This document shows positions 833 to 37,746 of a stretch of 59,330 bases of DNA, one piece after another. Numbering within the stretch: the stretch's first letter is position 1; each line of letters opens with the position of its first letter. The translations under genes were made by a program, and so were the position numbers. The stretch spans positions 1-59,330 of IMG/VR virus record IMGVR_UViG_3300010400_000023; one strand, given 5' to 3'. Under the pieces are notes generated by a model. That model had not been told where the DNA came from and ran no database searches. It worked only from the letters and a program-made list of their open reading frames with translations. Origin of the DNA: a virus (taxonomy: Duplodnaviria > Caudoviricetes).

Positions 833-1086
833 CCGACGGTGAGTCAGACGACAATGGCGGTCGATGGTGTGCTGGGCATGGCCGCAGCCACGGCAACCTA
901 TACATCTGTCCGCTGTACAGCGAAGAGATCAAGACGAAGCTCGAGGGCTACAACGCCCAGTTTCGTAACGACCTTCGCGATCCGGCATGGTGTGCTGAGC
1001 AGCGTGCTAAGGGCGTCCCGGAGTGGGGCATCAGGGCCATGGGCGCATTCGCCGGTGTCACTCTGCGATCGGGCAAGCCGTCATGA
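829..1086 (+). CDS. Hypothetical protein with Cys/His motif
   Basis: GTGA/ATGA coupling on both sides; C..H...H....C. Confidence 0.6.
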   Translation: MTDGESDDNGGRWCAGHGRSHGNLYICPLYSEEIKTKLEGYNAQFRNDLRDPAWCAEQRAKGVPEWGIRAMGAFAGVTLRSGKPS

Positions 1087-1634
1087 CCTGGCGCGTAACC
1101 ACGATCATGAGCGGAGGCCAGACCGGCGCTGACCGCGGCGGCATGGACGCGGCGATCCTGCTCGACCTTGACTGGGGCGGCTGGATGCCGAAGGGGCGAC
1201 TCGCGGAGGACGGCATCATCCCGGAGATCTACGCTGCGCGGATGCACGAGGCGGCGCAGCCGAGCATGGCGCTGCGCACCCGGCTCAATATCCAGGACAG
1301 CGACGGGACGCTGCTGCTGTCGTTTCGCAGCGAGTTGGATGGCGGATCGGCGTTCACGGCCGAGGTCGCCGAGCGTACGAAGCGCCCGTACCTGCACCTC
1401 GTGCTGGCCGATGGCGCGCTGGTTCCGCCTGCCGTGCGCGACTCCGTGCTCGAGTGGATCGAGACGGCTCACATCAGCGTGCTCAACGTTGCCGGTCCGC
1501 GCGAGTCGAAGGAGCCGGGCATCCAGGCGGCGGTGCGCGATGCGCTGATTGCGATACTCGAGCCGGTGGTGGTCGAGGCGGAGCGAGCGGTGGTGGTGAC
1601 AGAACCGGAACCCGACGAACACGAGGCCACATGA
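1083..1634 (+). CDS. SLOG-superfamily protein (putative molybdenum carrier / YpsA-like)
   Basis: ISGGQTGADRG-like motif, GGWMPKG, RTRLNIQDSDGTL, LNVAGPRES. Confidence 0.85.
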   Translation: MTWRVTTIMSGGQTGADRGGMDAAILLDLDWGGWMPKGRLAEDGIIPEIYAARMHEAAQPSMALRTRLNIQDSDGTLLLSFRSELDGGSAFTAEVAERTKRPYLHLVLADGALVPPAVRDSVLEWIETAHISVLNVAGPRESKEPGIQAAVRDALIAILEPVVVEAERAVVVTEPEPDEHEAT

Positions 1635-2581
1635 ACGCGATCCCGATTCCGAGGTGTCCGGCGTGTCAGCAGCAGATGCGCGAGAGCCGCGCGACTGACG
1701 TCGTCGAGTGTCGCTGCGGCTTCGAAGTCGACCACGAAACGCTGTACGCCGTAGCTCCGTGTCGTGCACTTGCCGTTGCAGACGGTCGCATGTCAGCGCC
1801 GCGTCCGCGTGGCGCGCGAGGCATCCGCATCTCGGAGAACTTCGGCGAATTGGTCGAACACGCGTGGGATCAGCGATCGGTGAAGCCATCGGAGATGGGG
1901 TTGCCGGCGCGGCAAACGCTGCACGAGGCTGCGCGTAATATCGGTGCACGACTGGGACTCGAGTATCAGGGCGAGGGGAAGGGTCAGTATCTCGTGGTTC
2001 CGGTCACCGGCACGGCGCGTGGTCGGCGCCAACTCCAACGCCAGAAGATCTACGCGTGCGCGCCGCTGAGCTTGGCTCTCGCTGCCGTCGAGCAGATGGT
2101 GCAGGTGATCGCCATGACGCGCGGCCCCGGTAGCTGGTGGAGTACGGGTGGATGCGCCGGCTACTGCGGCGATGGCGATGCGCGAATCGGCTACCTCGAC
2201 GGTGTGCCGCATGTGTTCCTAGCGGCGTACTACTTCCATGACCCGGTTGCGCAGACGCCAGCCGGCCGCATGGAGGCCGTTCTCGAGATGGCGCAGCGTG
2301 GGATGATCAGCACAGAGGAAGCGAAGGCGCTACTCGAGGTGCCGGAGGTGCCCGCCGCCGACCCGCTCGATGCGGTTATCGACGGGGTAACGCTGCGTGC
2401 GTTGCTGGCGTACGACGAATGCGATCGACGTGAGACCATGAGCACCATCGTCCAGCGCAACCACACTCCCGCTCAGCGCGCTGCAGTCAGCGCCCACTGG
2501 TCCGCCGAACTGCGGCTCCGCGTGAAGGCTGATGCGGCGAAGGAGCGGAACCAGGTGACCTACTGCGAGGAGGACGATTGA
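1631..2581 (+). CDS. Zn-ribbon mosaic protein carrying a portal-derived segment and a shared C-terminal domain
   Basis: CPAC..CRC N-terminus; TPAGRMEAVLEMAQRGMISTEEA matches the portal; C-terminus paralogous to 32451-33689. Confidence 0.8.
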   Translation: MNAIPIPRCPACQQQMRESRATDVVECRCGFEVDHETLYAVAPCRALAVADGRMSAPRPRGARGIRISENFGELVEHAWDQRSVKPSEMGLPARQTLHEAARNIGARLGLEYQGEGKGQYLVVPVTGTARGRRQLQRQKIYACAPLSLALAAVEQMVQVIAMTRGPGSWWSTGGCAGYCGDGDARIGYLDGVPHVFLAAYYFHDPVAQTPAGRMEAVLEMAQRGMISTEEAKALLEVPEVPAADPLDAVIDGVTLRALLAYDECDRRETMSTIVQRNHTPAQRAAVSAHWSAELRLRVKADAAKERNQVTYCEEDD

Positions 2582-4966: not shown

Positions 4967-5343
4967 ACCCGTTCCGCGAGCTGTTCGTCGAGGTGCCGCG
5001 TCAGTTGCTTGAGGCTGCCGTCGCGGAAGCGAAGTCGCGCCGCAGGCCGACTGGCGCGTCGTATACGTACGGTCCCAGTTCAGTCATCGAGCGGCTTCGC
5101 AAGCTGCCGTGGGCCATCATCGCGGCTGATTTGTTCGGATGGACCAGTTGTTCGGTCACTCGATCTGCCTACACCGACGACATCATCATCGAAGGCATGT
5201 CGGCATGTCGGCATCGTCAGCGCGTCGAGGTATCGGAGATTGCGGTCATGGCGGCACGAGAGATCCGCGAGATCGTCGACGCGATCGTGCGCGAGGTCGA
5301 TGCGCAGCGCGCGTGCTACTGCGTCCAGGCGGCGCGCCCATGA
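4963..5343 (+). CDS. Hypothetical protein sharing N-terminal P(F/Y)RELFVE.P motif with 2581-3126
   Basis: MNPFRELFVEVP vs MSDPYRELFVETP. Confidence 0.65.
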   Translation: MNPFRELFVEVPRQLLEAAVAEAKSRRRPTGASYTYGPSSVIERLRKLPWAIIAADLFGWTSCSVTRSAYTDDIIIEGMSACRHRQRVEVSEIAVMAAREIREIVDAIVREVDAQRACYCVQAARP

Positions 5344-6211: not shown

Positions 6212-6480
6212 ACCTGCCGCGGCACATCAGCTTGACGATCCAGCACAACCCGCACCGGGGCGTCTACGTGCCGATCGATAAGTGGATCGAGGACTACCTG
6301 CTCTCGGCGACCAGTGGTACCGGATTCACCGCCGACGAGGTCATTGCGCCCGCCGACCATGCGGCCATCCTCGCGACGGGCGAGGTCTGGATTATCAGCT
6401 GGTGTCCCGATACGCCAGTCGGCTCGTGCTGCGTCGTCGCCGCAACGCTCGATCGCGCGCTGGAGTTCGCGAACCAATGA
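6208..6480 (+). CDS. Hypothetical protein
   Basis: ATGA-coupled ORF. Confidence 0.6.
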   Translation: MNLPRHISLTIQHNPHRGVYVPIDKWIEDYLLSATSGTGFTADEVIAPADHAAILATGEVWIISWCPDTPVGSCCVVAATLDRALEFANQ

Positions 6481-6595
6481 CCCTGCATGCCTCAGGCACC
6501 CCTATGCCGCCCTGACCGCTCCATGGGACAGGGAGAAATCCGAGCGCCGCGTCCTCTCACCGGATGCGGCGTGGGCGGCTGAGATCCGCGAGGCG

Positions 6596-8194
6596 GTGCT
6601 TGCCGACTGTCATCCGTTTCAGCGGGACGCCGTCTCGGCGCCACACCGCTATTTCACGTGGCTCGTGGGGCGCGGCGGCGGCAAGACCACCTCCTACAAG
6701 GCGAAGTACCTCATCGGTCTGTCGTCGATCCCCAAGGGCAAGTTCCTGTTTGCCGCGCCGACGCGCGAGATGGCCGCTGACCTGCTCTGGGACCCGCTCA
6801 AGGACAGCTGCGAGCGCCTCGGCATCGAGGCCAGCTGGAACGAGACGCGCAAGGTCTGCACGTTCAAGCGCACCGGAGCGAAGCTCAAGCTCGTCGGCGC
6901 CGACGACAAGAAGGAGATGGGCAAGCAACGCGGTCAGCCGTTTGACGGCGTTGGCGTTGACGAGGTCGCCGAGTTCTTGCCGCACCTGATCGAGTGGTTC
7001 GTGGACCGCATCATCGCACCGCGTCTCGGCGAGCGCGGCGGATGGCTCGGCCTCGCCAGTACCCCGGGTCACGTGCTCCGCGGGTTGTTCTACGAGGCCA
7101 CGCGCCCCGGCTCGGGGCTGCATGTCCCGTTCTCCGAGGCCAGCAAGCACCCGGGATGGGGCGGCTGGGTGTCGCATTCGTGGGGGCTACGGCAAGTCGT
7201 CGAGCTCCCCGACGCGACTCGGAAGTACCCCGCCATCGTGGCGAACTGGCTCGAAGCGCTGCGCATCAAGGCGCTGCGCCAGTGGGGCGACGATAACCCC
7301 ATTTGGCTCCGCGAGTACGAGGGCCGGTGGGCGGCGGATAACGCGCTCATGGTGTTCCGGTACCTGCCGCACCGGGACGGCGCGCCGTGGAACCAGTGGG
7401 ACCCGCCGCGACGCGGGACGATGCAGATCGCTGTGCTGCCGGCCGGTCGCTCGGACTGGCTGTACGTCATCGCGATCGACGAGGGCTTTGCCGATCCATT
7501 TGCTTGCAATGCGTTTGCATTTAGCCCGACGGATCCGACGAGGACGATCTATCACATCTACGGCATGGAGCAGGGCAAGCGTCGCGGCGATGACGTCGAC
7601 AAGCGCCCCGAGGCGGAGCGCGAGAAGATGTACGCGCGCCCGGTGGCGCAGTTGCTCATCGGTGACGCGCTTGACCCGTCGAAGCCCAGTGGGCTCATCG
7701 GCGCGATCGGCACGTGGCCGATCGGCATGGAGGGCGACTGCGGTGAGGCGTTGCTCCTTGAGCTCGCCAACGTCTACGGCATCCGCGTCGAGCGGTTCGA
7801 CCGAACGACGAAGTACAAACTCACGGCGATCGAGGTGGTAAACGGAGACCTCGCCGACGGCAGGATCAAGATCCTGAAAGGCTCCGCTCTCGAGGTGCAG
7901 CTCGGCGAACTGCAGTATGCCGAGGACGACTTCGGCAACCTGAAAGAGAATAAGGCGCAGGCGAACCACTCGAGTGATACTCTTGTAATTGCTCGTAAAA
8001 TCATTGGTAAGCTGCTATCCGCCGGGACTGTCGACGAGCCGTCCGATCCAGCAGCGGCGAAGCGTGTGGCGACGGAACTGGCGCGGCTCAAGGCGATCGA
8101 AGATCCGCCCGATCCCGAGGACAGCTCGCACTCACCCGGATTCGCAGGTATGCTCGTCGGAGGAGACTACTCGGACCCATGGAGTCAGATATGA
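6596..8194 (+). CDS. terL: Terminase large subunit (start uncertain; frame open from 6314)
   Basis: HPFQ motif, Walker A GRGGGKTT, Walker B GVGVDE, ASTPG coupling motif, nuclease AIDEGFADP and NHSSD. Confidence 0.92.
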   Translation: MLADCHPFQRDAVSAPHRYFTWLVGRGGGKTTSYKAKYLIGLSSIPKGKFLFAAPTREMAADLLWDPLKDSCERLGIEASWNETRKVCTFKRTGAKLKLVGADDKKEMGKQRGQPFDGVGVDEVAEFLPHLIEWFVDRIIAPRLGERGGWLGLASTPGHVLRGLFYEATRPGSGLHVPFSEASKHPGWGGWVSHSWGLRQVVELPDATRKYPAIVANWLEALRIKALRQWGDDNPIWLREYEGRWAADNALMVFRYLPHRDGAPWNQWDPPRRGTMQIAVLPAGRSDWLYVIAIDEGFADPFACNAFAFSPTDPTRTIYHIYGMEQGKRRGDDVDKRPEAEREKMYARPVAQLLIGDALDPSKPSGLIGAIGTWPIGMEGDCGEALLLELANVYGIRVERFDRTTKYKLTAIEVVNGDLADGRIKILKGSALEVQLGELQYAEDDFGNLKENKAQANHSSDTLVIARKIIGKLLSAGTVDEPSDPAAAKRVATELARLKAIEDPPDPEDSSHSPGFAGMLVGGDYSDPWSQI

Positions 8195-8894: not shown

Positions 8895-10739
8895 ATGGCG
8901 ACCGACCGCGAGAAACGTCTCTGGTACAACCTACCCAAGAACGAAGCGCACGCTGCGATTCTGGCGTACGTGCAGGGCGTCTCGTCGCGCCAGTCGAGGC
9001 TGTACGAGAAGTTCCTGCGCCTCGACGGGATGTATGACCCAAACTCGGTCCGCACCGAGCTGTACGGTCGGCCGGGCACCGACACCCTCGGGCTCGTCAC
9101 TGAAAACGTAGTCGCGTCCAACGTCGATACGGTGACCGCGGCGATCGCCGCGACCGACGTGCGCGCGCGCTTCATGACCGACGACGGCGACTGGTCAACG
9201 CAACGGACCGCGCGTCACCTCGAGTGGTATGCGGAGGCGCTGTCGAAACAGCTCGACATGGACACGCTATGCCAGCGGGCGTTCAAGTCAGCGGCGATCA
9301 AGGGCACCGGGCTGATTCACGTCTACGCCGACGGCGGAAACAACGTGCGTGCCGAGCAGGTTCCGGTTGACGAGTGCATCGTCGACGAGTCCGAGTCGCA
9401 CAGCGCCCGGCCGCGCCAGATGCACCGCGTGCACCTCGTCGACCGTGATGAATTGAAGATGATGTACCCCGGGCACGACGAGGACATCGACGGCGCGCAG
9501 TACGGCGGTCGTGGTCTGATGAGGCTCTGGAACATCAACAGCCGCAGCGACAACAACGAAGTCGTCGTGATCCACAGCTGGCGGTTGCCGGTTGGTAAGC
9601 GCCCGGGCCGCGAAGTCGTTTCGCTCGACGGCACGACGCTCCTCGATCGGAAGTACGAGAAGACGTTCTTCCCGTTCGCCCGCTTCGTGTGGAGCGAGCC
9701 AGATCAGGGCTGGTACGGCATCGGCGGCGCCGAACGCATCGCCGGTCATCAGCGCGCGCTCAACCGGCGCAACTGGCAGATCGATCGGCTGCTACAGCAA
9801 AACGCCGTGCCGACGACGTACGTCCGGCGCGCGGACGCGAACCTCCGTGCGCAGGTCACCAACGAACTCGGGACAATCGCCGTGGTCAACGGGGAGATCC
9901 CGGTGACCGTGCATCAGCCGGTCGTGAACAAGGAGACGTACTCGTCTCGTGATCAGCTCAAGGCGTCGGCGTTTCAGGAGTTTGGCGTCTCAATGCTGGC
10001 CGCGCAGTCGACGAAGCCTGCAGGCCTCGACTCCGGCGTGGCGCTCCGCGAGTACCGCGACAGCACGACGCAACGGTTTGCGATGCAAGAGAAGGGCTAC
10101 GAAAAGCTCAAGCTTGACGCGATTTGGTTGGCGATCGACGTCTGCAAGGACCTCGGCGCCAAGGCGCCGCAGATGATGCGGCGCACGAAGTTCGGAGCGC
10201 GTAAGCTGCCGTGGTCCAAGGTGGATATGGGCGATGTCCGCGTGCAGATCGCCGCGGCGTCGACGATGTCACGCACACCGGCCGGTCGCATGCAGACCGT
10301 GCTCGAGTGGGCACAGGCCGGAGTGATTTCGCAGGACGAGGCTCGACGCCTGATGCGGCATCCAGACCTTGAGCGGTCGATGTCCATCTACACCGCGGCG
10401 CTCGAAGCGGTGGAGCACGCCATCGAAGAGATCGAGGACGGCGCAGTCCTGATGCCGGAGCCGTTTGACAACCTGCAGATGATCGTCTGGCGCGGCCAGA
10501 TGGAGTACCTGAAGATCTCCACCGAGGACGCCCCCGAAGAGGTTCTTGAGGCGTTGCGCCAGTATGTCGTGCAGGCAGCCTGGATGATCGCGCAGCAGGA
10601 CGCACCCGCCGCGAACGAGAACGCCGGCGCAGCGGCCCCAGCGCAGCCTGAGATGCCGCCGCTGCCCGGCGCTCCACCCGTCAACATGCCCGCCGTTGCC
10701 GCGCTGTCACCGCAGTCGATGCAGCTCCGGGCTGTCTAG
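8895..10739 (+). CDS. Portal protein
   Basis: 614 aa, position between terL and scaffold/MCP; GTG, FFPF..F.W, GWYG.G, FGVS motifs. Confidence 0.88.
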   Translation: MATDREKRLWYNLPKNEAHAAILAYVQGVSSRQSRLYEKFLRLDGMYDPNSVRTELYGRPGTDTLGLVTENVVASNVDTVTAAIAATDVRARFMTDDGDWSTQRTARHLEWYAEALSKQLDMDTLCQRAFKSAAIKGTGLIHVYADGGNNVRAEQVPVDECIVDESESHSARPRQMHRVHLVDRDELKMMYPGHDEDIDGAQYGGRGLMRLWNINSRSDNNEVVVIHSWRLPVGKRPGREVVSLDGTTLLDRKYEKTFFPFARFVWSEPDQGWYGIGGAERIAGHQRALNRRNWQIDRLLQQNAVPTTYVRRADANLRAQVTNELGTIAVVNGEIPVTVHQPVVNKETYSSRDQLKASAFQEFGVSMLAAQSTKPAGLDSGVALREYRDSTTQRFAMQEKGYEKLKLDAIWLAIDVCKDLGAKAPQMMRRTKFGARKLPWSKVDMGDVRVQIAAASTMSRTPAGRMQTVLEWAQAGVISQDEARRLMRHPDLERSMSIYTAALEAVEHAIEEIEDGAVLMPEPFDNLQMIVWRGQMEYLKISTEDAPEEVLEALRQYVVQAAWMIAQQDAPAANENAGAAAPAQPEMPPLPGAPPVNMPAVAALSPQSMQLRAV

Positions 10740-12128: not shown

Positions 12129-13325
12129 GTGGCTTCAGCTTCAACTCTCACTACAGTCGCATTCATTTTCAAGAAGACGTACGGCGACGGCATCGGCGAT
12201 GCCGCGTCGCGCGACCATCCGTTCTTCTACAACATCCGCAAGGTCAACAAGTTCCGCGGCGAGAGCTTCAAGTACAGCGTCAAGTACGGCAATCCGCAGG
12301 GCATCGGCGCGACGATCGCGCTCGCTCAGGCCGGCGCCGCATCGAGCAAGGGTCTGCAGTTCGAGGCGGTCCGCTTCAAGAAGTTCGGCCTCATCACGCT
12401 CGACGGTGAGTCGCTCATGGCCAGCGATGGCGATGACGGCGCGCTCGTCGAGCTGGTCACGACCGAGTCCGACGGCATCCTCGCGGAGCTCGTCGACTCG
12501 CTGGCGTACGACCTGTACCGCGACGGCACGGGCAAGCGTGGCAAGCGCCTCAGCGCATCGACGAACGTCATCACCCTGACGGTCGCCGACGACGCCCGTA
12601 ACTTCAAGGTCGGCATGACCGTGATGGCGTCTCCGAACGCCAACGGCTCATCGCCCCGCGCCGGTACCACCACGGTGGCCGGCGTCGACGAAGACGCGGG
12701 TACGGTCACGCTGACCTCGGCAGCGGCGATCACGTCGTTCGCCGATGCCGACTTCTTGTTCCGCAGCGGCGACCCGACGACCTGCGTTGAGGGTCTCGAG
12801 GTCTGCACGCCGCTCACCGCCCCGACGCCCGGCGACTCGTTCCGCACCAAAGATCGCAGCGTCGATGCGCCTCGCCTCGCCGGGTCGCGCGTCAACAACC
12901 TCAACAACGTCATCGAGGAGAACGCCGGTGATGTCGCGGTCAAGCTGAACCAGCGCGGCCGGAAGGCGCGTGAATACTACCTGAACCCCGTCAACTTCTT
13001 CCAGGTCGTCAAGCGCCAGGGCGCCAAGGTCGAGTACCAGGGCGGCGGCGGTACGGCGGATATCTTCTTCGAGACGTTCAGCCTCCACACGTCAGTCGGG
13101 ACCCTCAAGGTCTACTCCGATCCGGACTGCCCCATCGACCGCGGTCGCGTGGTCAACCCCGATGACCAGTACCTCCGCATCCTCGGAGAGTACCCGCACG
13201 TGATCATGGACGATGGTCAGCGCTCGCTGCGCCAGACCGCCGACGACGGCATCGAAGTTCGATGCCGTGCCATGGGCAATCTCATCCAGAAAAACACGGC
13301 GTCGCAGGGCGTCCACTCGATCTGA
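12129..13325 (+). CDS. Major capsid protein
   Basis: 398 aa, strong codon bias, GAGGA RBS, LAYDLYRDGTG and DPDCP motifs, position. Confidence 0.85.
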   Translation: MASASTLTTVAFIFKKTYGDGIGDAASRDHPFFYNIRKVNKFRGESFKYSVKYGNPQGIGATIALAQAGAASSKGLQFEAVRFKKFGLITLDGESLMASDGDDGALVELVTTESDGILAELVDSLAYDLYRDGTGKRGKRLSASTNVITLTVADDARNFKVGMTVMASPNANGSSPRAGTTTVAGVDEDAGTVTLTSAAAITSFADADFLFRSGDPTTCVEGLEVCTPLTAPTPGDSFRTKDRSVDAPRLAGSRVNNLNNVIEENAGDVAVKLNQRGRKAREYYLNPVNFFQVVKRQGAKVEYQGGGGTADIFFETFSLHTSVGTLKVYSDPDCPIDRGRVVNPDDQYLRILGEYPHVIMDDGQRSLRQTADDGIEVRCRAMGNLIQKNTASQGVHSI

Positions 13326-30226: not shown

Positions 30227-30529
30227 ATGGTTCGCGTCGGCTCCCTGGCCCTTGAGCTCGAGTGTGCGGTCGACGACTTGTCGATTGCGCATCAGAAGGT
30301 CGACGCGTTCCTCGAGTCGTTGTTCGTAGGATGGCGACCCCGATTCCCGGTAAGCCTCGGGTGGCGTCGAACCGGGCCATGGGAGATCGAGGTCTGGGAT
30401 GCGATCGACTCACCAGCCGCGCGTGATGCGCTGGCTCGTGCCGGGTGGTCGACGGTGACGCTGCACCCGCATCAGGCAGCGAAGTTCCTGACCTGTGACT
30501 GCCTGCCGCAGCGAACGGAGATTACGTGA
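30227..30529 (+). CDS. Hypothetical protein
   Basis: ORF coupled to endolysin. Confidence 0.55.
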   Translation: MVRVGSLALELECAVDDLSIAHQKVDAFLESLFVGWRPRFPVSLGWRRTGPWEIEVWDAIDSPAARDALARAGWSTVTLHPHQAAKFLTCDCLPQRTEIT

Positions 30530-31257
30530 TCTCACCGGTGATCGTAGATGTGTACCCCCGCGACAAGCCCGTCGACTGGACTGCGTATATCGCCGCTGGC
30601 CATCCCTTCGTCGGCGCGGTGTTCAAGCTCTCGCAGGGGCTACACTACGAGTACGCGGGCTGGGCGTATCAACAGCGGCAGCCGTTCGTGCGCTCACCGC
30701 GCTACGGAGTCGACTTGCTTGACGGCTTCTACCACTACCTGGATTTCGGCTCCGACGGCACCCGCCAAGCCGATTGGTTCTGGGGGCTCATGGAGAGGAT
30801 CGGCGGCGAGCAGATCGGCACCCTATGGGCCATGGTCGACGCCGAGCGCGGCGGGCAGACGGTCGCGCTCACCAAATCCCGCGTGGAGGGCTGCATCGGC
30901 GCGTTCGCCGAGCGCTACCAGCAGCTCAGCGGGCGGACCGCCACGCTGTACGGTGGCGAGTTGCTGCGCGCGATCGGTGCGCACGGCAGGTACGGATGCG
31001 GCCGGTCGTCGGTCGCGCTGTACGCCAGCGAGCTCCACGGACTGCGAGAGACCACGGCGCAGTTCCTGGCGCGCACGGGGACCGACCTCGCACACCTGCT
31101 CAGCTGGCAGTACCAGGGCACCGAGGCGCCGAGCGGGCCGGCCGGGTATCCGCGGCTGATCCCGGGCGGCGGTGCAGTGACGTACGACATCAGCGCGCTG
31201 ACGCTGCCCGGCGGACTCGAGGCGCTGAGGTCACAGCTGTGGGCGGAGCGACCGTAG
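30526..31257 (+). CDS. Endolysin, GH25 muramidase-like
   Basis: IVDV, FKLSQG, GFYHY, QADWF, VDAE, WQY motifs. Confidence 0.82.
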   Translation: MISPVIVDVYPRDKPVDWTAYIAAGHPFVGAVFKLSQGLHYEYAGWAYQQRQPFVRSPRYGVDLLDGFYHYLDFGSDGTRQADWFWGLMERIGGEQIGTLWAMVDAERGGQTVALTKSRVEGCIGAFAERYQQLSGRTATLYGGELLRAIGAHGRYGCGRSSVALYASELHGLRETTAQFLARTGTDLAHLLSWQYQGTEAPSGPAGYPRLIPGGGAVTYDISALTLPGGLEALRSQLWAERP

Positions 31258-31466
31258 TTACTCGTGGCGTTCCAGGACCTCGCCGCACCCGTCGCGCTCC
31301 GGATACGCCGTCGCGCACTCTCCGCATAGGCGCCGGCTCGGGGTGCCGTCGCTGTAGCGCCGCATGATGTCGCCGCACTCTACGCGGCCGTTGTCGTGAA
31401 TTTCTCGCTCGCTCTCGTTCTTCATGGGTTCCCTTTGGACGCTCGGCGGCGTCCGGATCGAACAGG

Positions 31467-31664
31467 TTATCGCGTCGACCCTCTCGCAACGGCTAGCCCG
31501 AGCGCCTCACGCGCGAGGTCGCTCCAGGTCTGCCCCTGCTTGTCGGCGAGAGCGAGCTGGTCGGCGAGCTCTTCGGCGGTGATACGCACCCGCTTCGTCA
31601 CCGTCCGCGGCTTGGCCGCGCGGGGCTGGGCGAGACCGGCGATGGGGTTGCGGCGGCGGGTCAT
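31467..31664 (-). CDS. Ribbon-helix-helix (CopG-like) regulator
   Basis: KRVRIT strand then helices, G.TWSDLAREAL. Confidence 0.7.
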   Translation of the reverse strand: MTRRRNPIAGLAQPRAAKPRTVTKRVRITAEELADQLALADKQGQTWSDLAREALGLAVARGSTR

Positions 31665-31680
31665 GGACTTCCGCCGGTCA

Positions 31681-31896
31681 TCACGACCGCACCGCCTCGA
31701 CGTCGTCGGTCACGTCGACAATCGACCCGTCGGGGTCGATGCGACCGATGCCGAGGCATACGAGCTTGCCGTCGCGGAGCGCGATCCGGTTGCGCTCGCG
31801 CTCGGTCTTGTCGCGGCTCGTTGAGCTGGTGGTCGAGTACCGCTCGCCGGTGTCGCGGTCGATCACGGTGTAGTGGGTCTCGATGTTCGTATTCAC
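31681..31896 (-). CDS. Small hypothetical protein
   Basis: GTGA-coupled ORF in a three-gene operon. Confidence 0.55.
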   Translation of the reverse strand: MNTNIETHYTVIDRDTGERYSTTSSTSRDKTERERNRIALRDGKLVCLGIGRIDPDGSIVDVTDDVEAVRS

Positions 31897-32081
31897 GACC
31901 GCACCGCCGTTCCGCGGCGAACCAGACGGGCCTGCGGGATGGCCGGCGTGGTGCGGCGGAGAACCTTCGCGATTGCCTGGAAGGGATGGCCGTCGGTCAT
32001 GATCATGATGAGCGTGAACGCGGCGATCAGGATCACGACTGACCAGGCGATGATGTGCTGCCAGACGGGCGGGCTATTCAT
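31893..32081 (-). CDS. Small single-pass membrane protein
   Basis: IIAWSVVILIAAFTLIMIM hydrophobic segment, basic tail. Confidence 0.65.
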   Translation of the reverse strand: MNSPPVWQHIIAWSVVILIAAFTLIMIMTDGHPFQAIAKVLRRTTPAIPQARLVRRGTAVRS

Positions 32082-32087
32082 GTCCAG

Positions 32088-32116
32088 ACTGTAGCCACAA
32101 CTGTAGCCACAGTCAA
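32088..32116 (-). promoter_or_regulatory. Sigma70-type promoter TTGACT-N17-TACAGT overlapped by a tandem 12-bp repeat
   Basis: -35 at 32111-32116, -10 at 32088-32093; ACTGTAGCCACA x2 at 32088-32111. Confidence 0.75.
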
Positions 32117-32144
32117 GGGTCGTCGCTCGCGCTACGCTCCGCCC

Positions 32145-32450
32145 GTGGCCTGCCTCGACGCCTCACCCGCCTGTCGGCCTGCCGCGCTCTGCGACGGGTG
32201 CCTCGGCCGGGCCATCGCCAGCGGTCGAGGCCAGGCTCGCGTGCTCGGCGAATGCTGGGCTGAGCGGGTTGCGCGCCGGCCGGAGTTCCGGGTCCGAGAC
32301 AGCTGGCCGACGGACGAGCGGACCGCGGGGATGGCGCGCCGGAAGGTGGCCGGGCTGTCGGCCGATCCGCGGGTCGCCGACGAGCTCGCCGGGGCGTGCC
32401 TGCGGGGCGCAGCGGCGTGGTGGGCGAGGCGGCCGGAGCGTTATCGGTGA
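32145..32450 (+). CDS. Hypothetical Cys-containing protein
   Basis: GTG-started ORF divergent from the promoter above. Confidence 0.45.
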   Translation: MACLDASPACRPAALCDGCLGRAIASGRGQARVLGECWAERVARRPEFRVRDSWPTDERTAGMARRKVAGLSADPRVADELAGACLRGAAAWWARRPERYR

Positions 32451-33689
32451 TCAGTCATCGTCCACCTGTACCATCACGGTCAGCTTTGGCTTGGCCGTCT
32501 CGGCTACGCGAGCGCGGAGTTGCGCCGACCAGTGAGCCGACACCGCGGCACGCTGGGCCGGAGTGAATTCTGAAGACATGCGCGGAAACCACGAATCGCA
32601 TCCCTCTCGACGACAGACCTCATCGCGAAAAATCAGCGCCTTTAACACCTCGCCGTCGATGACTACGTCGAGCGGGTCAGCCGGCACCGCGCACGCCGCG
32701 CATCTCCACGGATGCCGGATCACGCCATCGACCGGCGTGGTCGCCGAGCACTGCGCTCCGTCGCGGATGCCCTGGCAGCGGAGTCTGGACAGGGGCGGCC
32801 CCATCTCGTCCATCAGCTTGCGCAGCCGTTGCCCGTATTCTGTCGCCTGGCTCTCGGTGATGCGGTCGTCGGTGAAGGGGATCATCTGGGCCGGAGGCGG
32901 CATCGGTGCCTTGAGCATCGCTTCGGCGCGGGAAACGCCGAACACTTCGTAAGCCTCGCGTTTGAGTAGGTCACACTCCGCCAGTAACGACGATGGAATC
33001 GGCTCCATGGTGCGAAACAGTTCGCGAGCCTGATCGTCGCATCGCTTCAGCATCGTGTCGACCGCGGCCTCGGTCTTCTCGCGCAGCTGCGCCACGAACG
33101 CGTCGCTTTGCCGCAGCGCCTCGCGGTCGACCTGCACCGGCTGGTAGCGCTTGGGATTCCGGGCTGTAGGCTCCACAAACGGCACCCACGTCCCGAGGTG
33201 CTCGCGCTGGAAGTCGGGCCGATTACGTACCTGCCAAGTCGATGCGTCGCTGTCGTTCGCCACATGGTCCGTGTAGACCACGCAGACCTTCCCACGCTCG
33301 ATGCCGTTCCGATATAGAACGATCTTCTGCTTGAGACCGAGATGATCGCGGACGTCGGAAGCCATGTCACGGCAGTAACTACTCAAAACCGACGGCCCGC
33401 CGTCGATGTAGAGCGTAACGCCTCCCATCAACTGGCATTGCGCGAGCGCTTCGAGTAGCCCGCGCATTGTCCGGCCGGTACGGCGCGGCGGCGCAGGCGA
33501 CAGCGCGGCGTACTCTGCCCACGGCCGCAGCCCCATGCGCTGGCGGTAGGACTCGGCGATGGCGATCACGTCGGTCGGCGGCGAGTCCTCGGGGAAGTAG
33601 TTCCCGATCGTTACGCCGCACCCGTGGCAGTTGTAGAGGTCGTTCGCGCTCGGTCGGATGTCAGCGCTCTGGCAGTGGGGGCAGTTCAT
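32451..33689 (-). CDS. Zn-ribbon mosaic protein with terminase-, capsid- and portal-like segments
   Basis: AGGAG RBS; CPHC/CHGC; RRTGRT, FQREHLGTW, DREAL..S, LKREAYEVFGVS; shared C-terminal domain. Confidence 0.8.
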   Translation of the reverse strand: MNCPHCQSADIRPSANDLYNCHGCGVTIGNYFPEDSPPTDVIAIAESYRQRMGLRPWAEYAALSPAPPRRTGRTMRGLLEALAQCQLMGGVTLYIDGGPSVLSSYCRDMASDVRDHLGLKQKIVLYRNGIERGKVCVVYTDHVANDSDASTWQVRNRPDFQREHLGTWVPFVEPTARNPKRYQPVQVDREALRQSDAFVAQLREKTEAAVDTMLKRCDDQARELFRTMEPIPSSLLAECDLLKREAYEVFGVSRAEAMLKAPMPPPAQMIPFTDDRITESQATEYGQRLRKLMDEMGPPLSRLRCQGIRDGAQCSATTPVDGVIRHPWRCAACAVPADPLDVVIDGEVLKALIFRDEVCRREGCDSWFPRMSSEFTPAQRAAVSAHWSAQLRARVAETAKPKLTVMVQVDDD

Positions 33690-33807
33690 CGGGTCTCCTG
33701 TAGTTGTAGCTTCTGTGCCGACGGGGCGGCAGAAATACTGAGGTCAGCGGGCGCGGCACACCGGTTGCACGAGATCGACCCATCTGTGCGCAGTTCCACG
33801 GTTCCAC

Positions 33808-33854
33808 GCGGACTGAAAATCCGCGTGTCGTTGGTTCAATTCCGACCCTGGGCA
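33808..33854 (+). mobile_element. attP: attP core: 3' half of tRNA-Phe(GAA)
   Basis: Anticodon arm GCGGA-CTGAAAA-TCCGC, T arm GTTGG-TTCAATT-CCGAC, acceptor 3' strand CCTGGGC-A; no 5' half; abuts integrase stop. Confidence 0.9.
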
Positions 33855-34952
33855 CTATCGTTTCGATATCTTGCGACGAGTTTCGGTCGCTGTCGGAGCG
33901 TCATTCGTCTCATTGGTATCTCGTGATCCACGGTCGTCTTGCACACGGGCTGCACACGGCTTCCCGCCGGGCAATCGGCTCACGGCTTCGGCGAGCGTGT
34001 CCTCGGACAGGCGACCGTAGACGAGATCGACCATCTTGGTGCTCGTGTGGCCGAGCAGGCGTGCCACCACGGCGCTGTCCGTCTTCTGGTTCTTGAGCCA
34101 ACTGGCGAACGTCCGGCGCAAGTCGTTGGGCGTCACCCTGGGGACCTTGGCGAGATCGGCTGCACGCGCCAGATCGCGGCGGACGTTGCGCCATCGAGTG
34201 ACGATCGGCCCGAGCAAGCGCTTCGGCGCCCCCGCGGCCAGGGCTTCGAGTAGGCGGGGCGCGATCGGTACGATACGCCACCGCGATGTGCGCTTGGTAC
34301 CTGGGACGCGCATCTTGGCCCGTCCAAAGTCGATATGCTCCCACCTGATGCGCTCGACCTCGCCGAGCGACAGACCGCCGAACATCGCAAGCATCACCCA
34401 CAGGCGGCGGCGAACGGCGATCTTCGCGAGGAAGCGCTCGGCCTGATGCTCGTCGAGCCAGACCTCCTTAGGCCGGTAGACCACGCGAACCTTGGGCACC
34501 ATGTCCTCGATCGACCCAGACCACAGACCACGCTTGCGGGCTTCGGCAAGCGCCCGACGCAGCACCACCAGCTCCTTGTGGATGGTGCCGTTGGCGGCGG
34601 TTTCGCTCTGGCGTGTCGCGATGTAGCGCATCACGGCATCGCGGGTGAGCGTGCCGACCTCGGTGTCGCCGCCGATCAGCCGGGTGAGGTGATGCCCCTT
34701 TTGGGCGTACGCTGTTGCGGTGGCTGCGGCGCGCTCGATGGCCACTACCGCGAGCATGTTGCCGATCGCATCCCTCAGCGTGTGGTGCGAATGCGTGGCC
34801 GGATCGGCCGATCCCAGTTCGAGCTTGCGGAGCTTGGCGCGAGCGACTTGCTGATCGCGCGTGCGGAGCGACTGCCGCCGAGCACGGCCTCGGATGTCAG
34901 TCCAGTAGCCGTGCCACGTGCCGCCTGGCTTGCGTTGATAGATTCTTCCCAC
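33855..34952 (-). CDS. int: Tyrosine recombinase (integrase)
   Basis: Arm-binding N-terminus, SAM-like core, GTK, NDLRRTFASW, LLGH, catalytic Y (DLVY); next to attP. Confidence 0.9.
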   Translation of the reverse strand: MGRIYQRKPGGTWHGYWTDIRGRARRQSLRTRDQQVARAKLRKLELGSADPATHSHHTLRDAIGNMLAVVAIERAAATATAYAQKGHHLTRLIGGDTEVGTLTRDAVMRYIATRQSETAANGTIHKELVVLRRALAEARKRGLWSGSIEDMVPKVRVVYRPKEVWLDEHQAERFLAKIAVRRRLWVMLAMFGGLSLGEVERIRWEHIDFGRAKMRVPGTKRTSRWRIVPIAPRLLEALAAGAPKRLLGPIVTRWRNVRRDLARAADLAKVPRVTPNDLRRTFASWLKNQKTDSAVVARLLGHTSTKMVDLVYGRLSEDTLAEAVSRLPGGKPCAARVQDDRGSRDTNETNDAPTATETRRKISKR

Positions 34953-35128
34953 GGTGCCTCTGTTCTGGATGCGAGATATCGAGCAAGCGCCTCCTCGGGG
35001 ACCCGCAACAGGCTGCCGACGCGCACGTGAACACACGAGCGGGCCACGCGGTACGCGGTCGCACGCGAACATCCGAGACGCGCGGCGATGTCTGCGGCGG
35101 TGAGGTAGACGATGTGCGGACGGGTCAC
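34775..35128 (-). CDS. xis: Excisionase-like HTH protein
   Basis: YLTAADIAARLGCSRATAYR...RVG..LRV. Confidence 0.8.
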   Translation of the reverse strand: MTRPHIVYLTAADIAARLGCSRATAYRVARSCVHVRVGSLLRVPEEALARYLASRTEAPWEESINASQAARGTATGLTSEAVLGGSRSARAISKSLAPSSASSNWDRPIRPRIRTTR

Positions 35129-37746
35129 GTCGCCTTCGCCCTCTCCAGCAACACCGCCAGCAGCTTCGCCTCCTCGTCGCTGCCCTTGCGCGCGCAGCCA
35201 TAGGCCCAAGCGATCCGCTTGAGGCTAGCGTTGGATGGGTCGGCGAGGATGCCGGCAATGCCGGTGGCTGTGGAGGTCATGGCTTGTTCTTCTCCTTCGC
35301 CCAGTCCCGGGCGTCGCTCCGCCTGGCGAACACGGCGATCGGCCACTCGTCGTCGCGCTCGGTGTCGTAGACGGCGTGGTCCGGCTTGCCGTTGAGGGCG
35401 AGGCCGATGTGATGGTCGGGGCGGACGACGTAGCGGCGGGTCATGACGCCGCCACCGGCGATCGCAGGATGACGTAGAACTCCGTGTTGCCGCACTCGTT
35501 TTCGCCGCACGCAGGCTCGGGCTCGTTCGGCTCAACGGCGCGAGCAAAGAACATCCGCCGGTTGCAGTCGCATCCGGCGTTGCCATCGGTCCACCAGAAC
35601 TCGTCTTTCCACGTGTTGCAGGGCTTCCAGCCGGGGCGGTCGATGCGTTGCACACCGTCGGAGACACGCACGATGACGACCTGCATCTCGTCGGTGTCGG
35701 CGGTTCCGGGCGGGCGCTGGATGATGTCGCGGGTTCGGGTCATAGGGGCCGATCGCTTTCCGGCGGCATGGGCTCGACCTCGTACTGTGTTGCCGCCGCA
35801 GCTCGGAGCAGCAGCCACATGCACACAGCGCGTGGCAGGTGCAGACGCTCGGCGACATCATGCGTGGTGAGCCAGAGGCGGAGGCGGATGGTCATGGTTT
35901 CATCCTTCGGTACTCATCGATCAGCCGGCGGCGCTCGTCGAGCGTGGCCGACAGTTTGATCTCGGCTTCCTGGCCGATCTGATCGTTGAGTCCGGTGTGC
36001 TGCAGGCACATCGTGTCGAGGTCCTCGATGACGATCGTGAGGTCGGCGATGCGTACGGCGACTATGGCGCGGTCGGTCATGGCAACGTCTCCAGATCCAC
36101 GAGCGTCTGATGCATGACGTCGAAATCACGCTCGCTGTCGCCCGCACGACTGTCCACGTACGCCCGCACTGCCCGCTGCAGCTTGAGCATCGCGCGAATC
36201 GTCTCGAGGTCGACGAACGCTCGCGGTACGGTGCTCTCAGGGCCGAGGCGGTAGCGGAGGCGGTCGAGGGCGGTCACGTGAACCACTCCGCGCGCAGCGC
36301 CGGGTGTGACTCGATCAGGCGGTACGCGGCTTCGACGCAAGACTCCCCGTAGCCGTACGGGTCGACAGAATCGCAGAGCACGGCATGGCGCAGTTCGAGG
36401 GCAACACGCAGCGGCTCACCGGTTCTCTGTCCGATCAGGTCATCGACGTACGTCAAATTCCGCGCATCGCTCACGCACATGAGCACCTCGATCACCTGGC
36501 GTTTCTCGGCGAGCGTCATGATTCACCTCCAAGGTCCGCATGCCGCGCCACGCTAGCTGCGACGTCGTGGCGGGTGTTGTCGTCGGAGGCGTGCTCGGTG
36601 GCGGCGATGGCGGCGCGCAGATGATCCTCCACGCGATCCGCCTCCGCCTGCCGCTCGCGTACCTGCCGCGGTGTCAGACCGATGACCTCGGGTGCGCCGG
36701 CGCGGATGATGCGGTCGTCGGGGTTCGCGTGCACGAGCTTGAGCTCGTCGGCCAGATCATCGTGCTCCACGATCGCCCGAGCCAGCCAACCGGAGTACCA
36801 ATGTGACGACATGAGAGCGGAGTCATCTTCATCGACCCGCTCGAAGTCCTCCCACCCCCAGCGCTCCGCTGTCATGGCCGAACCCGGACAACCGCCCAGC
36901 CATGCCTCGATCGAGTGGACGGCCAGTTCAGCGGCGCGCAGCTCGTCGTACGAGTTGTATGTGTCTGCGGCTGGCCCCATCCCCACGGTCTCCTTGCACC
37001 GGCGACATCGCCAGCGCTCGACGACGCAGCCGCGGAACCGATCGTCGTAGGAATCAGGCTCGATCATCTTGTGGCGGCAGGTCCCCATCAGCTCTCTCCT
37101 TGCTTCGCGCCAGTAGCGGCGTACGTGGTTAGCTGCCCGATGTATCCAGCGGCCCAGTCAGCGCGGCCGACGGCCGTGTACCAACTGGCCATCCAGGCCA
37201 CGACGACATGGTGCGGGAGCATCTGGCGCTCGGCGGGTTCGACGGTCACGACGGCACCCCATCAATCGCAGCTTCGACCGCATCGGCCAGCTTCGCAGCC
37301 TCATCAGCCGCAACGTCGATCTCCCTGCAGGTCAGCAGGTCTGCAGCCGCGGCTGTCAGCGCCCGCAGCCGGATCATCGTCGTGTCGTGGCGGCGCTCTG
37401 TCGCGGTCAGCTGGCGTGCGAGGTCGGCGGCTCGGTCGGACATGGACTGGAAGTCGCGGCGGTACTGGGCGAGCTGCCGACGTGCGGTGGCGAGCGTGTC
37501 GGTGGCCTCGCGGAGGTCGGCTTTGAGGCGGTCGTTGGTGGCCTCGAAGCGCTGGCGGTCGCTGATGTTCAGGCCGGTGGCGACGTCGAGACGGTCCATG
37601 TACAGCCGCATGTCCTCGCACATTGCGGAGATGTGGCCGAGGAGATCGTCCGCCACCGCCCAGTTACATGTGGCCGAGCGCTGGTCGACTCGGCGGCGAA
37701 TGCCAGACAGTTCCTCGGGGCTGAGAAGCTTGGGTTCGGGCTTCAT
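35125..37746 (-). other. Cluster of small early hypothetical genes (35125-35280, 35277-35444, 35441-35743, 35892-36080, 36274-36519, 36516-37088, 37246-37746)
   Basis: Overlapping stop/start-coupled ORFs; 35441-35743 has WW.DGN.GCDCNR; 37246-37746 is coiled-coil. Confidence 0.6.

What the first reader, a model, noticed from the sequence alone, without database searches (positions are those of the whole stretch)
32451..33689. One protein concatenating terminase-, capsid- and portal-like pieces next to attP
In order: (1) Zn ribbon. (2) A degenerate TerL Walker-A region RRTGRT...TLYI...D.LGL (33333-33485; TerL has GRGGGKTT...FLF...ERLGI; the catalytic Lys is Arg). (3) A TerL linker motif W...N.PDFQREHLGTW (about 33180-33236; TerL WGDDNPIWLREYEGRW). 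(4) An MCP-like helix KRYQPVQVDREALRQS...D..L....D.ARELFR (33012-33152; MCP KKFGLITLDGESLMAS...DGIL....DSLAYDLYR at 12378-12521). (5) Portal-like DLLKREAYEVFGVSRAEAMLKAP (32904-32972; portal DQLKASAFQEFGVSMLAAQSTKP at 9951-10019, 10/23 identical). (6) A second Zn finger and the shared C-terminal domain. It lies opposite to the late genes at the prophage edge, where lysogeny-expressed morons usually sit. A single polypeptide displaying pieces of all three head-packaging proteins is very unusual.
Basis: partly seen in the sequence, partly recalled or inferred. Interest (0 to 1): 0.9.

Follow-up and report, generated by a model that had tools for sequence, protein, structure and literature searches.

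The report
Mosaic phage protein with terminase/portal-like pieces
This is a real 412-residue gene next to the phage attachment site whose protein is a patchwork of small exchangeable modules, two of which look like diverged copies of conserved bits of the phage's own DNA-packaging enzyme and portal, joined to a constant tail domain that defines a large, undescribed family of soil-phage proteins.

Summary

Tests of the protein against the window's own terminase (TerL), portal and capsid (MCP) proteins gave chance-level scores. Profile tests changed that picture:
- **TerL hinge motif, res 158-172:** supported.
- **Portal-like piece, res 223-266:** supported.
- **"RRTGRT" region, res 39-148:** a genuine about 110-aa domain, also found in 21 other, mostly small (112-380 aa), proteins. 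Its likeness to the TerL Walker-A region is only borderline.
- **MCP-like piece:** weak.

The C-terminal 75 aa define an orphan family of at least 289 clusters. None of the 120 listed members has a Pfam domain, and the model found no PDB fold match. Other members carry further portal-, TerL- and MCP-like modules. The window's second copy (1634-2581) has a 35-aa portal-like module.

attP is the 3' 45 nt of tRNA-Phe. It is identical in 18 MAG contigs, mostly titled Kofleriaceae.

The function is untested. My best guess is a non-catalytic mimic or competitor acting on head assembly or DNA packaging.

The parts
32451..33689 (-). q412: complete ORF of 412 aa, including the stop codon
   Evidence: An independent Logan contig covers 31200-33837 with 0 differences.
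33695..33699 (-). AGGAG ribosome-binding-site-like motif, 5 nt before the ATG
   Evidence: read from the sequence
33585..33689 (-). N-terminal zinc-ribbon-like CxxC...CxxC (Cys 3, 6, 21, 24), res 1-35
   Evidence: Shared with P0027 and P0038. Pfam and NCBIfam Zn-ribbon hits fall below their thresholds.
33246..33575 (-). 'RRTGRT' degenerate P-loop-like alpha/beta domain, res 39-148
   Evidence: 110.5 bits against a family profile built without q412. 21 homologues. AF2 pLDDT 86-97 over the core. TerL likeness is borderline.
33174..33218 (-). TerL hinge-like motif PDFQREHLGTWV, res 158-172
33042..33155 (-).
   Evidence: 24.7 bits against the family module profile. MCP likeness is weak.
32892..33023 (-). 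Family module M3b, portal-like, res 223-266
   Evidence: 28.9 bits against the module profile. That profile finds portals at ranks 1 and 2. Direct portal profile: 14.5 bits, or 7.2 bits without the window's portal.
32685..32804 (-). Four-Cys cluster (Cys 305, 314, 330, 333), res 296-335
   Evidence: 88% identical to the start of P0025. AF2 confidence is low here.
32454..32684 (-). Family-defining C-terminal domain with an acidic tail, res 336-412
33808..33852 (+). attP core: the 3' 45 nt of tRNA-Phe(GAA)
   Evidence: Contig depth jumps from about 22 to 496 here.
33855..34925 (-). Tyrosine integrase gene (start codon uncertain; the ORF is open as far as 35258)
   Evidence: Pfam Phage_integrase E 4.1e-15
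1634..2581 (+). Second family member in the window (315 aa): Zn ribbon, portal-like module (res 205-241, nt 2246-2356) and C-terminal domain
7277..7357 (+). TerL hinge segment (TerL res 322-348), the counterpart of q412 res 158-172
9903..10058 (+). Portal segment res 337-388, the counterpart of module M3b
10242..10421 (+). Portal segment res 450-509, the counterpart of the module in the 1634-2581 protein

Best explanation
q412 is a genuine accessory gene of a temperate phage of about 59 kb. The attP match suggests the host is a Kofleriaceae myxobacterium.

**What the protein is.** It is the most module-rich sampled member of an undescribed family. Each member has a constant C-terminal domain of about 75 aa: a short hairpin, two helices and an acidic C-terminus, with an almost invariant TPAQRAAVSAHWSA stretch. 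In front of it sits a variable region assembled from a pool of short exchangeable modules.

In q412 the modules, in order, are:
1. a Zn ribbon;
2. a degenerate P-loop-like 'RRTGRT' domain that also occurs in other, mostly small, phage proteins;
3. a 13-aa copy of the TerL hinge motif;
4. a helical family module;
5. a module resembling a conserved portal segment;
6. a four-Cys cluster.

Other members carry further portal-, TerL- and MCP-like modules.

**What is shown and what is inferred.** The modular anatomy and the sequence kinship of the hinge and portal modules are shown. The mechanism is inferred. I propose that the protein has no catalytic activity and works by mimicry. Its copied segments would engage whatever normally binds those parts of TerL and portal during procapsid assembly or DNA packaging. 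The constant domain would supply a common docking or oligomerisation function.

The att-proximal copy could act from the prophage against related superinfecting phages. The copy upstream of the terminase gene could act in the lytic cycle.
For: **Gene and family**
- The gene is real.
- The C-terminal domain profile finds 289 clusters at E<=1e-3. None of the 120 listed carries a Pfam domain.
- 34 of 35 checked members end in an acidic tail; the exception is cut off by a contig end.
- The window's two copies differ at many synonymous sites (76% DNA identity), so selection acts on the protein.
- N-terminal regions of 101 members fall into 33 single-linkage clusters.

**q412 against module profiles built without it**
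- RRTGRT domain: 110.5 bits.
- Hinge: 15.9 bits.
- M3a: 24.7 bits.
- M3b: 28.9 bits.
- 7 of 161 proteins carry two or more of the six profiled modules; q412 has four, the most.

**TerL hinge**
- A profile of five TerLs without the window's ranks q412 first of 4,129 non-TerL ORFs, at 13.0 bits against 6.1 for the next.
- A profile of 12 family hinge segments without q412 returns TerLs as its top three non-family hits, at 13.4, 12.5 and 6.4 bits against 2.3 for the next. The reversed-database maximum is 5.6.
- 8 of 151 proteins score at least 8 bits, against 0 of 3,020 shuffled.

**Portal**
- The M3b profile returns portals at ranks 1, 2, 5 and 10, with 22.7 and 12.8 bits for the first two. The reversed maximum is 8.0.
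- Used as a query against the family set, the window's portal matches the 1634-2581 protein at 21.5 bits (iE 6e-7). Four of the five hits of at least 12 bits by the 60 window proteins come from the portal, and none occur in the shuffled set.

**Tile scan**
- 15 of 215 TerL, portal and MCP tiles reach 11 bits, against 0 of 142 tiles from seven other proteins.

**RRTGRT domain and TerL**
- hhalign P 0.019 on the Walker-A segment.
- TerLs are the best non-family hits of the domain profile, at ranks 4, 10, 14 and 19.
- P0029 and P0033 keep the GKT motif.

**Position**
- A second complete phage (L010) has a family member in the same slot, downstream of its integrase gene and facing the lysin.
Against: **Weak or negative sequence tests**
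- All pairwise tests against the window's own TerL, portal and MCP are at chance.
- The modules are short (13-44 aa), and reversed family sequences give tile hits of up to 15.0 bits. q412's own direct scores of 12-14 bits are therefore not safe on their own.
- Without the window's portal, the portal profile gives q412 only 7.2 bits.
- A TerL Walker-A profile ranks q412 631st or lower.
- hhalign probability is 2.4%.

**Structure**
- Foldseek found no hit at E<=1e-3 for the RRTGRT model in PDB or BFVD, or for the C-terminal model in PDB.

**Selection bias**
My leave-one-out profiles are not fully independent of that choice, because homologues share conserved positions.

**Function**
- No binding, expression or phenotype data exist.
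- Only 13 of 161 members carry the hinge module and 4 of 161 carry M3b, so the family's function cannot depend on them.
- No PADLOC, Pfam, NCBIfam or functional PHROG match.
Confidence: 0.5

Rival explanations
1. The TerL- and portal-like modules are evolutionary scrap. In this reading, fragments of essential genes were duplicated by illegitimate recombination and kept only as helical spacers. The protein then works through its Zn ribbon, Cys cluster and constant C-terminal domain, for example as a DNA-binding or regulatory factor, without touching the packaging machinery.
For: - 23 of 101 members carry CxxC...CxxC motifs.
- The q412 Zn ribbon resembles the N-terminal ribbons of IS transposases (Pfam Zn_ribbon_IS1595 E 0.48).
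- Most members lack any head-protein-like module.
- A near-standalone 78-aa form of the C-terminal domain exists in L004, so the constant domain is the functional core.
Against: - The modules are conserved in frame across distant members: hinge in 13 of 161, the module resembling portal res 450-509 (weak Pfam SHOCT-like match) in 9 of 161.
- They match the most conserved motifs of TerL and portal rather than random parts.
- q412's hinge is closer to the TerLs of other phages than to its own. That pattern fits maintained sequence better than decaying scrap.
Confidence: 0.27
2. One reading: a lysogeny-expressed decoy that displays terminase, capsid and portal epitopes to blunt host sensors of those proteins (Avs-type), or to give superinfection immunity.
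For: - The position beside attP, opposite the late genes, recurs in L010.
- TerL- and portal-like modules are present.
- Prophage-encoded defence genes are common in temperate mycobacteriophages (abstract of 10.1101/2023.01.03.522681, seen in the listing).
Against: - The capsid piece is not supported in q412.
- The likenesses are short segments, not whole folds. Avs sensors are reported to read folds (recalled, not checked here).
- Five of the nine related loci (L003, L005, L006, L009, L011) carry their member within a few kb upstream of TerL, as does the window's second copy. L010 has its member next to the integrase gene.
- No PADLOC match.
Confidence: 0.1
3. All resemblance to head proteins is coincidence, or convergence of short helical motifs. 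In this reading q412 is simply an orphan multi-domain protein of unknown role.
For: - Chance-level pairwise statistics.
- A reversed-sequence null reaching 15 bits.
- No significant Foldseek match.
- No hit in 50,697 isolated-phage records, or in representative genomes of 185,579 species when scanned with two conserved motifs of the C-terminal domain.
Against: - Reciprocal profiles built without q412 or the window's proteins pick TerLs or portals as their very top hits among about 4,100 ORFs, at the homologous positions and well above reversed-database maxima.
- The portal match to the 1634-2581 protein has iE 6e-7.
- 0 of 142 control tiles reach the threshold.
Confidence: 0.1

Closest known systems
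Large terminase subunit (TerL): ATPase Walker-A region and the ATPase-nuclease hinge
   Same: - The RRTGRT...RLGL...VxYxDH order lines up with TerL Walker A, 'ERLGI' and Walker B in a relaxed hhalign alignment.
- The spacing from the P-loop to the 'LGL' motif is 46 aa in q412 and 48 aa in TerL.
- The hinge motif P-x3-RE-x2-G-x-WV is shared.
   Different: - About 135 aa against TerL's about 340 for the same span, with motif III and the lid missing.
- Arg stands where the Walker Lys should be, and DH where Walker B has DE.
- No nuclease domain.
- No Pfam or PHROG TerL hit.
- It is not a terminase.
Portal protein of the same phage group (weak Pfam Head-tail_con match)
   Same: - q412 res 223-266 resembles portal res 337-388.
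- Res 205-241 of the 1634-2581 protein resembles portal res 450-509.
   Different: - Only 35-45 aa are shared, with no portal fold.
- I could not map the segments onto portal domains, because no solved portal matched by sequence.
Polyvalent proteins of phages and conjugative elements (Iyer, Burroughs and Aravind 2017; recalled, not read here)
   Same: Variable strings of shuffled modules in mobile-element proteins thought to act in conflicts.
   Different: - Those are large and built from recognisable enzymatic or anti-defence domains.
- Here the modules are short, have no curated family, and partly copy head-assembly proteins.
- A constant C-terminal domain is always present.
Satellite-encoded hijackers of head assembly and packaging (SaPI Ppi, PICI Rpp and Ccm, P4 Sid; recalled, not read here)
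   Same: The proposed logic: a non-structural protein that interferes with or redirects packaging or capsid assembly by binding its components, in some cases as a homologue of a head protein.
   Different: - Those are whole-domain proteins of satellites with shown targets.
- q412 is phage-encoded, carries only fragments, and has no shown target.
Prophage-expressed defence genes ('morons') near attP or the integrase gene in temperate actinophages (Dedrick et al. 2017, recalled; abstract of 10.1101/2023.01.03.522681 seen)
   Same: Position between the lysis genes and attP/integrase, on the strand opposite the late genes.
   Different: - No expression or defence data.
- No PADLOC match.
- Most located relatives lie upstream of TerL instead.

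Membership tests
Large terminase (TerL) | Match to curated TerL models | tested here: not met
   No Pfam or PHROG TerL hit for q412. The window's true TerL hits phrog_2 at E 8e-19.
Large terminase (TerL) | Catalytic Walker-A lysine (GK[ST], or the deviant form K-x2-R-x-G-x-[ST]) and Walker-B DE | tested here: not met
   q412 has PPRRTGRT and YTDH. Arg occupies the Lys position in at least 90% of 22 aligned members.
Large terminase (TerL) | C-terminal RNase-H-like nuclease domain | tested here: not met
   No q412 tile hit of 5 bits or more beyond the hinge (TerL tiles spanning res 316-358).
Large terminase (TerL) | Hinge motif P-x3-RE-x2-G-x-W | tested here: met
   Rank 1 of 4,129 ORFs at 13.0 bits. 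The reciprocal profile's top three hits are TerLs.
P-loop NTPase fold | Structural match of the domain model to P-loop NTPases | tested here: inconclusive
   The top Foldseek hits are ABC, F1, UvsX and helicase ATPases, but at E>=0.06 and TM 0.2-0.37. In BFVD two small entries labelled terminase score E 0.46 and 0.77. No strand is predicted before the P-loop-like motif.
Portal protein | Full-length match to a portal family | tested here: not met
   No Pfam or PHROG hit. The likeness is limited to res 223-266.
HK97-fold major capsid protein | Sequence kinship with the phages' MCPs | tested here: not met
   6.2 bits, E 2.7. The M3a module profile ranks MCPs at 498 or lower.
Zinc ribbon | Two CxxC pairs and a match to a Zn-ribbon model | tested here: inconclusive
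   Cys 3, 6, 21 and 24 are present. The models score below their cut-offs: E 0.29-0.82 in Pfam and E 0.008-0.015 in NCBIfam.
Unnamed family defined here by its C-terminal domain | DPLD-x3-DG...L, TPAQRAAVSAHWSA-x-LR and an acidic C-terminus at the very end of the protein | tested here: met
   AF2 pLDDT 85-95 over the two helices.
Known anti-phage defence systems (PADLOC) | Match to any PADLOC model | tested here: not met
   0 families for q412 at E<=0.1.

The most novel reading that the evidence does not exclude
A whole family of phage proteins (at least 289 clusters) would be collages of short, conserved interface segments copied from the phages' own portal, large terminase and capsid proteins. 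These are strung in ever-changing order onto one constant docking domain. The family would work at the level of assembly, as weapons or regulators: dominant-negative mimics that cap or jam the head-packaging machinery of rival related phages, or time the phage's own. q412, expressed from the prophage edge, would be the most heavily armed example.
Probability: 0.25. Interest if true: 0.85.

Novelty: new variant of a known kind. Interest (0 to 1): 0.62.

Why it matters
If the module kinship holds, this is a way of making new phage genes that I have not seen described. Short conserved pieces of essential head-assembly proteins would be recycled into accessory proteins. One literature search (133 papers held at least 3 of the 4 terms, and I saw the top 10 titles and the starts of their abstracts) showed nothing similar.

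It would give a concrete, testable set of peptides that may mark functional interfaces of TerL and portal. It would also suggest a new route of phage-phage interference at the packaging step.

Two further points matter:
- It defines an orphan domain family with no curated model and no structural neighbour in PDB.
- It points to temperate phages of uncultured Kofleriaceae, for which the search found no phage literature (2 papers held both terms; by title, neither is about such phages).

Tried and rejected
**Searches and tests that led nowhere**
- megablast and tblastn of q412 against 50,697 phage records: no match.
- Pfam, PHROGs, PADLOC and NCBIfam: nothing significant.
- ESM Atlas: only weak leads. 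Scores were at most 0.83 and TM below 0.4 for the whole protein, and nothing useful came up for the C-terminal part.
- PDB sequence profiles of the RRTGRT domain and of the portal: no hits.
- Foldseek: no hit at E<=1e-3 in any of the three searches.
- Genome-contig scan for the family: 0 relatives.
- Metagenome-contig scan with q412: only Zn-ribbon matches. The one I read (L033) is in a transposase-like ORF.

**Ideas rejected**
- cpYpsA SLOG protein as an obligatory partner of the C-terminal domain. It is present in only 3 of 5 genomes that carry the domain (2 of 4 complete ones), and in none of 4 further fragments.
- C-terminal domain as a part of TerL: hhalign P 0.033 on an N-terminal TerL helix, which I did not consider meaningful.
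- Control proteins for deeper tile controls. Three window proteins had no or only one homologue in the five related genomes, so controls stayed at 142 tiles from seven proteins.

**No information obtained**
- Promoter scan: no sigma-70-like site between attP and the ATG. This scan may not suit the presumed host.
- Rfam on 31000-36000: only the tRNA fragment, below threshold. L010 6000-7600: nothing credible.
- Expression: no RNA holder was listed for the stretch. Only contigs of two DNA runs could be laid, and one of those runs may be the source sample.
- Supplementary files of papers were not consulted.

Full report
**Setting.** The window is one IMG/VR virus record of 59,330 bp, about 65% G+C.
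- Late genes run rightwards on the + strand. They include TerL 6314-8194 (PHROG terminase families, E 8e-19), portal 8895-10739, MCP 12129-13325 and a GH25 lysin 30526-31257.
- From 31258 onwards the genes run leftwards.
- The finding's ORF, 32451-33689(-), encodes 412 aa and is called q412 here. It has coding-type G+C by codon position (0.66/0.48/0.79) and an AGGAG 5 nt before its ATG.
- A Logan contig covers it without a single difference.
- Upstream lie 118 nt, then a 45-nt stretch (33808-33852) that is the 3' end of a tRNA-Phe(GAA), then the stop of a tyrosine integrase gene.
- The 45-mer occurs exactly in 18 MAG contigs. Thirteen are titled Kofleriaceae, and the rest Deltaproteobacteria or Proteobacteria. 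In all 5 loci I checked it lies inside an intact tRNA-Phe gene.
- So 'next to attP, opposite to the late genes' is correct, and the host is probably a Kofleriaceae myxobacterium.

**First pass: the resemblances looked like chance.**
- tblastn of q412 against the window gave one significant match: res 337-412 against 2357-2578, E 2e-14. The portal match had E 2.4, and TerL and MCP did not appear in their reading frames.
- Smith-Waterman scores were reached by 100/200 (TerL), 30/200 (portal) and 37/200 (MCP) shuffles, against 0/200 for the second copy.
- '10 of 23 identical' was matched by 12 of 20 shuffled proteins.
- No Pfam, PHROG, PADLOC or NCBIfam family fitted. No isolated phage record matched.

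**The family.**
- Homologue searches showed that only the last 75 residues or so are widely shared. Their pattern is DPLD-x3-DG-x2-L...TPAQRAAVSAHWSA-x-LRA-x-V, then a short hydrophobic run and an acidic end.
- 34 of 35 checked members have the acidic end; the exception is truncated by a contig end.
- A profile of this domain finds 289 clusters of 161-2000 aa. None of the 120 listed has a Pfam domain, and many sit on contigs of 50-66 kb.
- Near-standalone forms of 78 and 141 aa also exist.
- AlphaFold2 gives a confident hairpin plus two helices (pLDDT 85-95). Foldseek finds nothing like it in PDB.
- The window's two copies differ at many synonymous sites, so the conservation is at protein level.
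- Related viral genomes carry one or two copies.
- Five of the nine related loci (L003, L005, L006, L009, L011) carry their member within a few kb upstream of TerL, as does the window's second copy.
- In L010 the gene follows the integrase gene and faces the lysin, as q412 does.
- N-terminal parts are extremely varied: 33 single-linkage clusters among 101.

**Anatomy of q412**.

| Residues | Module | Main evidence |
|---|---|---|
| 1-35 | CxxC...CxxC ribbon | Shared with P0027 and P0038 |
| 39-148 | 'RRTGRT' domain | Occurs in 21 other proteins, mostly of 112-211 aa; no curated family |
| 158-172 | PDFQREHLGTWV motif | TerL hinge-like |
| 179-216 | Helical module M3a | Found in 22 of 161 proteins |
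| 223-266 | Module M3b | Found in 4 of 161 proteins; portal-like |
| 296-335 | Four-Cys cluster | 88% identical to the start of P0025 |
| 336-412 | Constant C-terminal domain | Defines the family |

- The RRTGRT domain model is confident in its core: helices, the RRTGRT loop, a helix, then alternating strands and a helix.
- The close relatives P0038 and P0027 have the same two ends but lack the RRTGRT domain and the Cys cluster. The locus therefore gains and loses modules.

**Second pass: profiles.** I looked again because the hinge-like motif recurred in relatives.

*TerL hinge*
- A TerL hinge profile ranked q412 as the best non-TerL ORF among 2,091 (12.2 bits).
- It hit 8 of 151 family-related proteins at 8 bits or more, against 0 of 3,020 shuffled.
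- With the window's TerL removed and six whole phage genomes as the database (4,135 six-frame ORFs), q412 ranked first of 4,129 at 13.0 bits, against 6.1 for the next.
- In the reverse direction, a profile of 12 family hinge segments without q412 returned three TerLs as its top non-family hits, at the hinge position. Scores were 13.4, 12.5 and 6.4 bits against 2.3 for the next, with a reversed-database maximum of 5.6.

*Portal*
- A portal-segment profile gave q412 14.5 bits (rank 1). Without the window's portal it gave only 7.2 bits (rank 2).
- The M3b profile built from P0071, P0022 and P0027 found portals at ranks 1, 2, 5 and 10, with 22.7 and 12.8 bits for the first two and a reversed maximum of 8.0. 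q412 fits that profile at 28.9 bits.
- The window's portal (res 450-494) matches the 1634-2581 protein at 21.5 bits, iE 6e-7.
- Four of the five hits of at least 12 bits made by 60 window proteins on the family came from the portal. None occurred in shuffled sets.

*Tile scan*
- 15 of 215 TerL, portal and MCP tiles reached 11 bits, against 0 of 142 tiles from seven other proteins and 0 in shuffled sets.

**Cautions.**
- Reversed family sequences produced tile hits of up to 15.0 bits: 4 of 215 tiles reached 11 bits. Single scores of 12-14 bits are therefore not safe. The case rests on the reciprocal tests and on scores above 15 bits.
- In an unbiased single-sequence scan of 160 variable regions against the six genomes, only the portal stood out. 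It took 6 of 24 non-family hits at 12 bits or more, while making up 0.8% of the database and getting no reversed hits. TerL and MCP did not appear.
- The Walker-A likeness is borderline:
  - hhalign P 0.019, probability 2.4%.
  - 2 of 100 column shuffles reach the score.
  - TerLs are the best non-family hits of the domain profile, but at 5-8.5 bits.
  - A TerL Walker-A profile ranks q412 631st or lower.
  - In favour, two members keep GKT where the others have GRT, and a relaxed alignment puts VxYxDH on Walker B.
- Foldseek's best matches are P-loop ATPases, but none is significant.
- The MCP-like piece is weak: rank 3 but 6.2 bits, and its family profile does not find MCPs.
- A different MCP-like module does exist in P0015 and L011: 19.9 bits in the tile scan, and 15.3 bits reciprocally against a reversed maximum of 10.9.
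- However, q412's hinge is closer to the TerLs of other phages than to its own. That is the opposite of what regression from a chance match predicts.

**Interpretation.**
- Shown: a real gene, a new constant domain family, a modular variable region, and kinship of two q412 modules with conserved TerL and portal segments.
- Inferred: the protein is not an enzyme, because the Walker Lys and the Walker-B Glu are replaced and there is no nuclease domain. It probably acts by mimicry or competition on partners of those segments in head assembly or packaging, with the constant domain as a common docking or oligomerising part.
- Whether the att-proximal copy is expressed in lysogens is unknown.
- The main rival is that the modules are recycled scrap with no mimic role.
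- The Avs-decoy idea remains possible but has no specific support.

**Limits.**
- The segments could not be mapped onto a portal structure.
- Papers named under Closest known systems are recalled unless marked as seen.

Noticed in passing
window 33808-33852; L012-L029: The attP core equals the 3' 45 nt of tRNA-Phe(GAA) in 18 MAG contigs, 13 of them titled Kofleriaceae. This is probably a temperate phage of an uncultured myxobacterial family. A search for 'Kofleriaceae' plus 'phage' found 2 papers, and by title neither is about such phages.
   Followed up: partly
window 1023-2581: A cpYpsA (SLOG) gene (Pfam E 2.6e-46) ends in a TGATG overlap with the start of the second family member (1634-2581). 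SLOG genes lie near family genes in L003, L005 and L011. A PHROG 'GTP-binding domain' gene overlaps the end of the RRTGRT-domain gene in L030. Two complete genomes with the family lack cpYpsA.
   Followed up: partly
L011 10459-13353 (TerL of G005): This TerL is 964 aa. In the alignment it carries an insertion of about 340 aa that begins with Cys and ends ...VLVSNC, which looks like an intein. Not tested.
   Followed up: no
L005, L006, L011 and L007-L009 TerLs: These TerLs have a Walker A of the form K-T-R-R-x-G-x-T, with the lysine at the front and no GK[ST]. The window's TerL has GRGGGKT.
   Followed up: no
window 32082-32450: A 370-nt stretch between q412's stop and the next leftward gene has no convincing gene. 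The + strand ORF 32055-32450 has an atypical second-codon-position G+C of 0.67. A promoter-like site at 32116-32088(-) precedes the 62-aa membrane-protein gene.
   Followed up: partly
window 31258-32081 (-): Four small leftward genes with G+C at third codon positions of 0.84-0.92 follow q412: a 62-aa protein with a hydrophobic segment, a 71-aa protein, a 65-aa protein and a Cys-rich 55-aa protein. None matches a family.
   Followed up: partly
L030 4509-5534; L031 6332-7816: In two other viral contigs the RRTGRT domain is the C-terminal part of 341- and 494-aa proteins encoded two or three genes downstream of TerL.
   Followed up: partly
window 33803-33939: In the soil run that holds the phage, contigs break at the tRNA fragment. 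Summed depth there is 496, against about 22 on either side. This fits a sequence shared with host tRNA genes.
   Followed up: no
L055 (+2 frame, ORF at 5120) and L045 (-0 frame, ORF at 2879): Variable regions of P0021 and P0138 share a motif (TLAFTLAAPT.AGQ.K) with 281- and 469-aa ORFs of G005 and G002 whose function is unknown. The module pool may therefore draw on further phage proteins.
   Followed up: no
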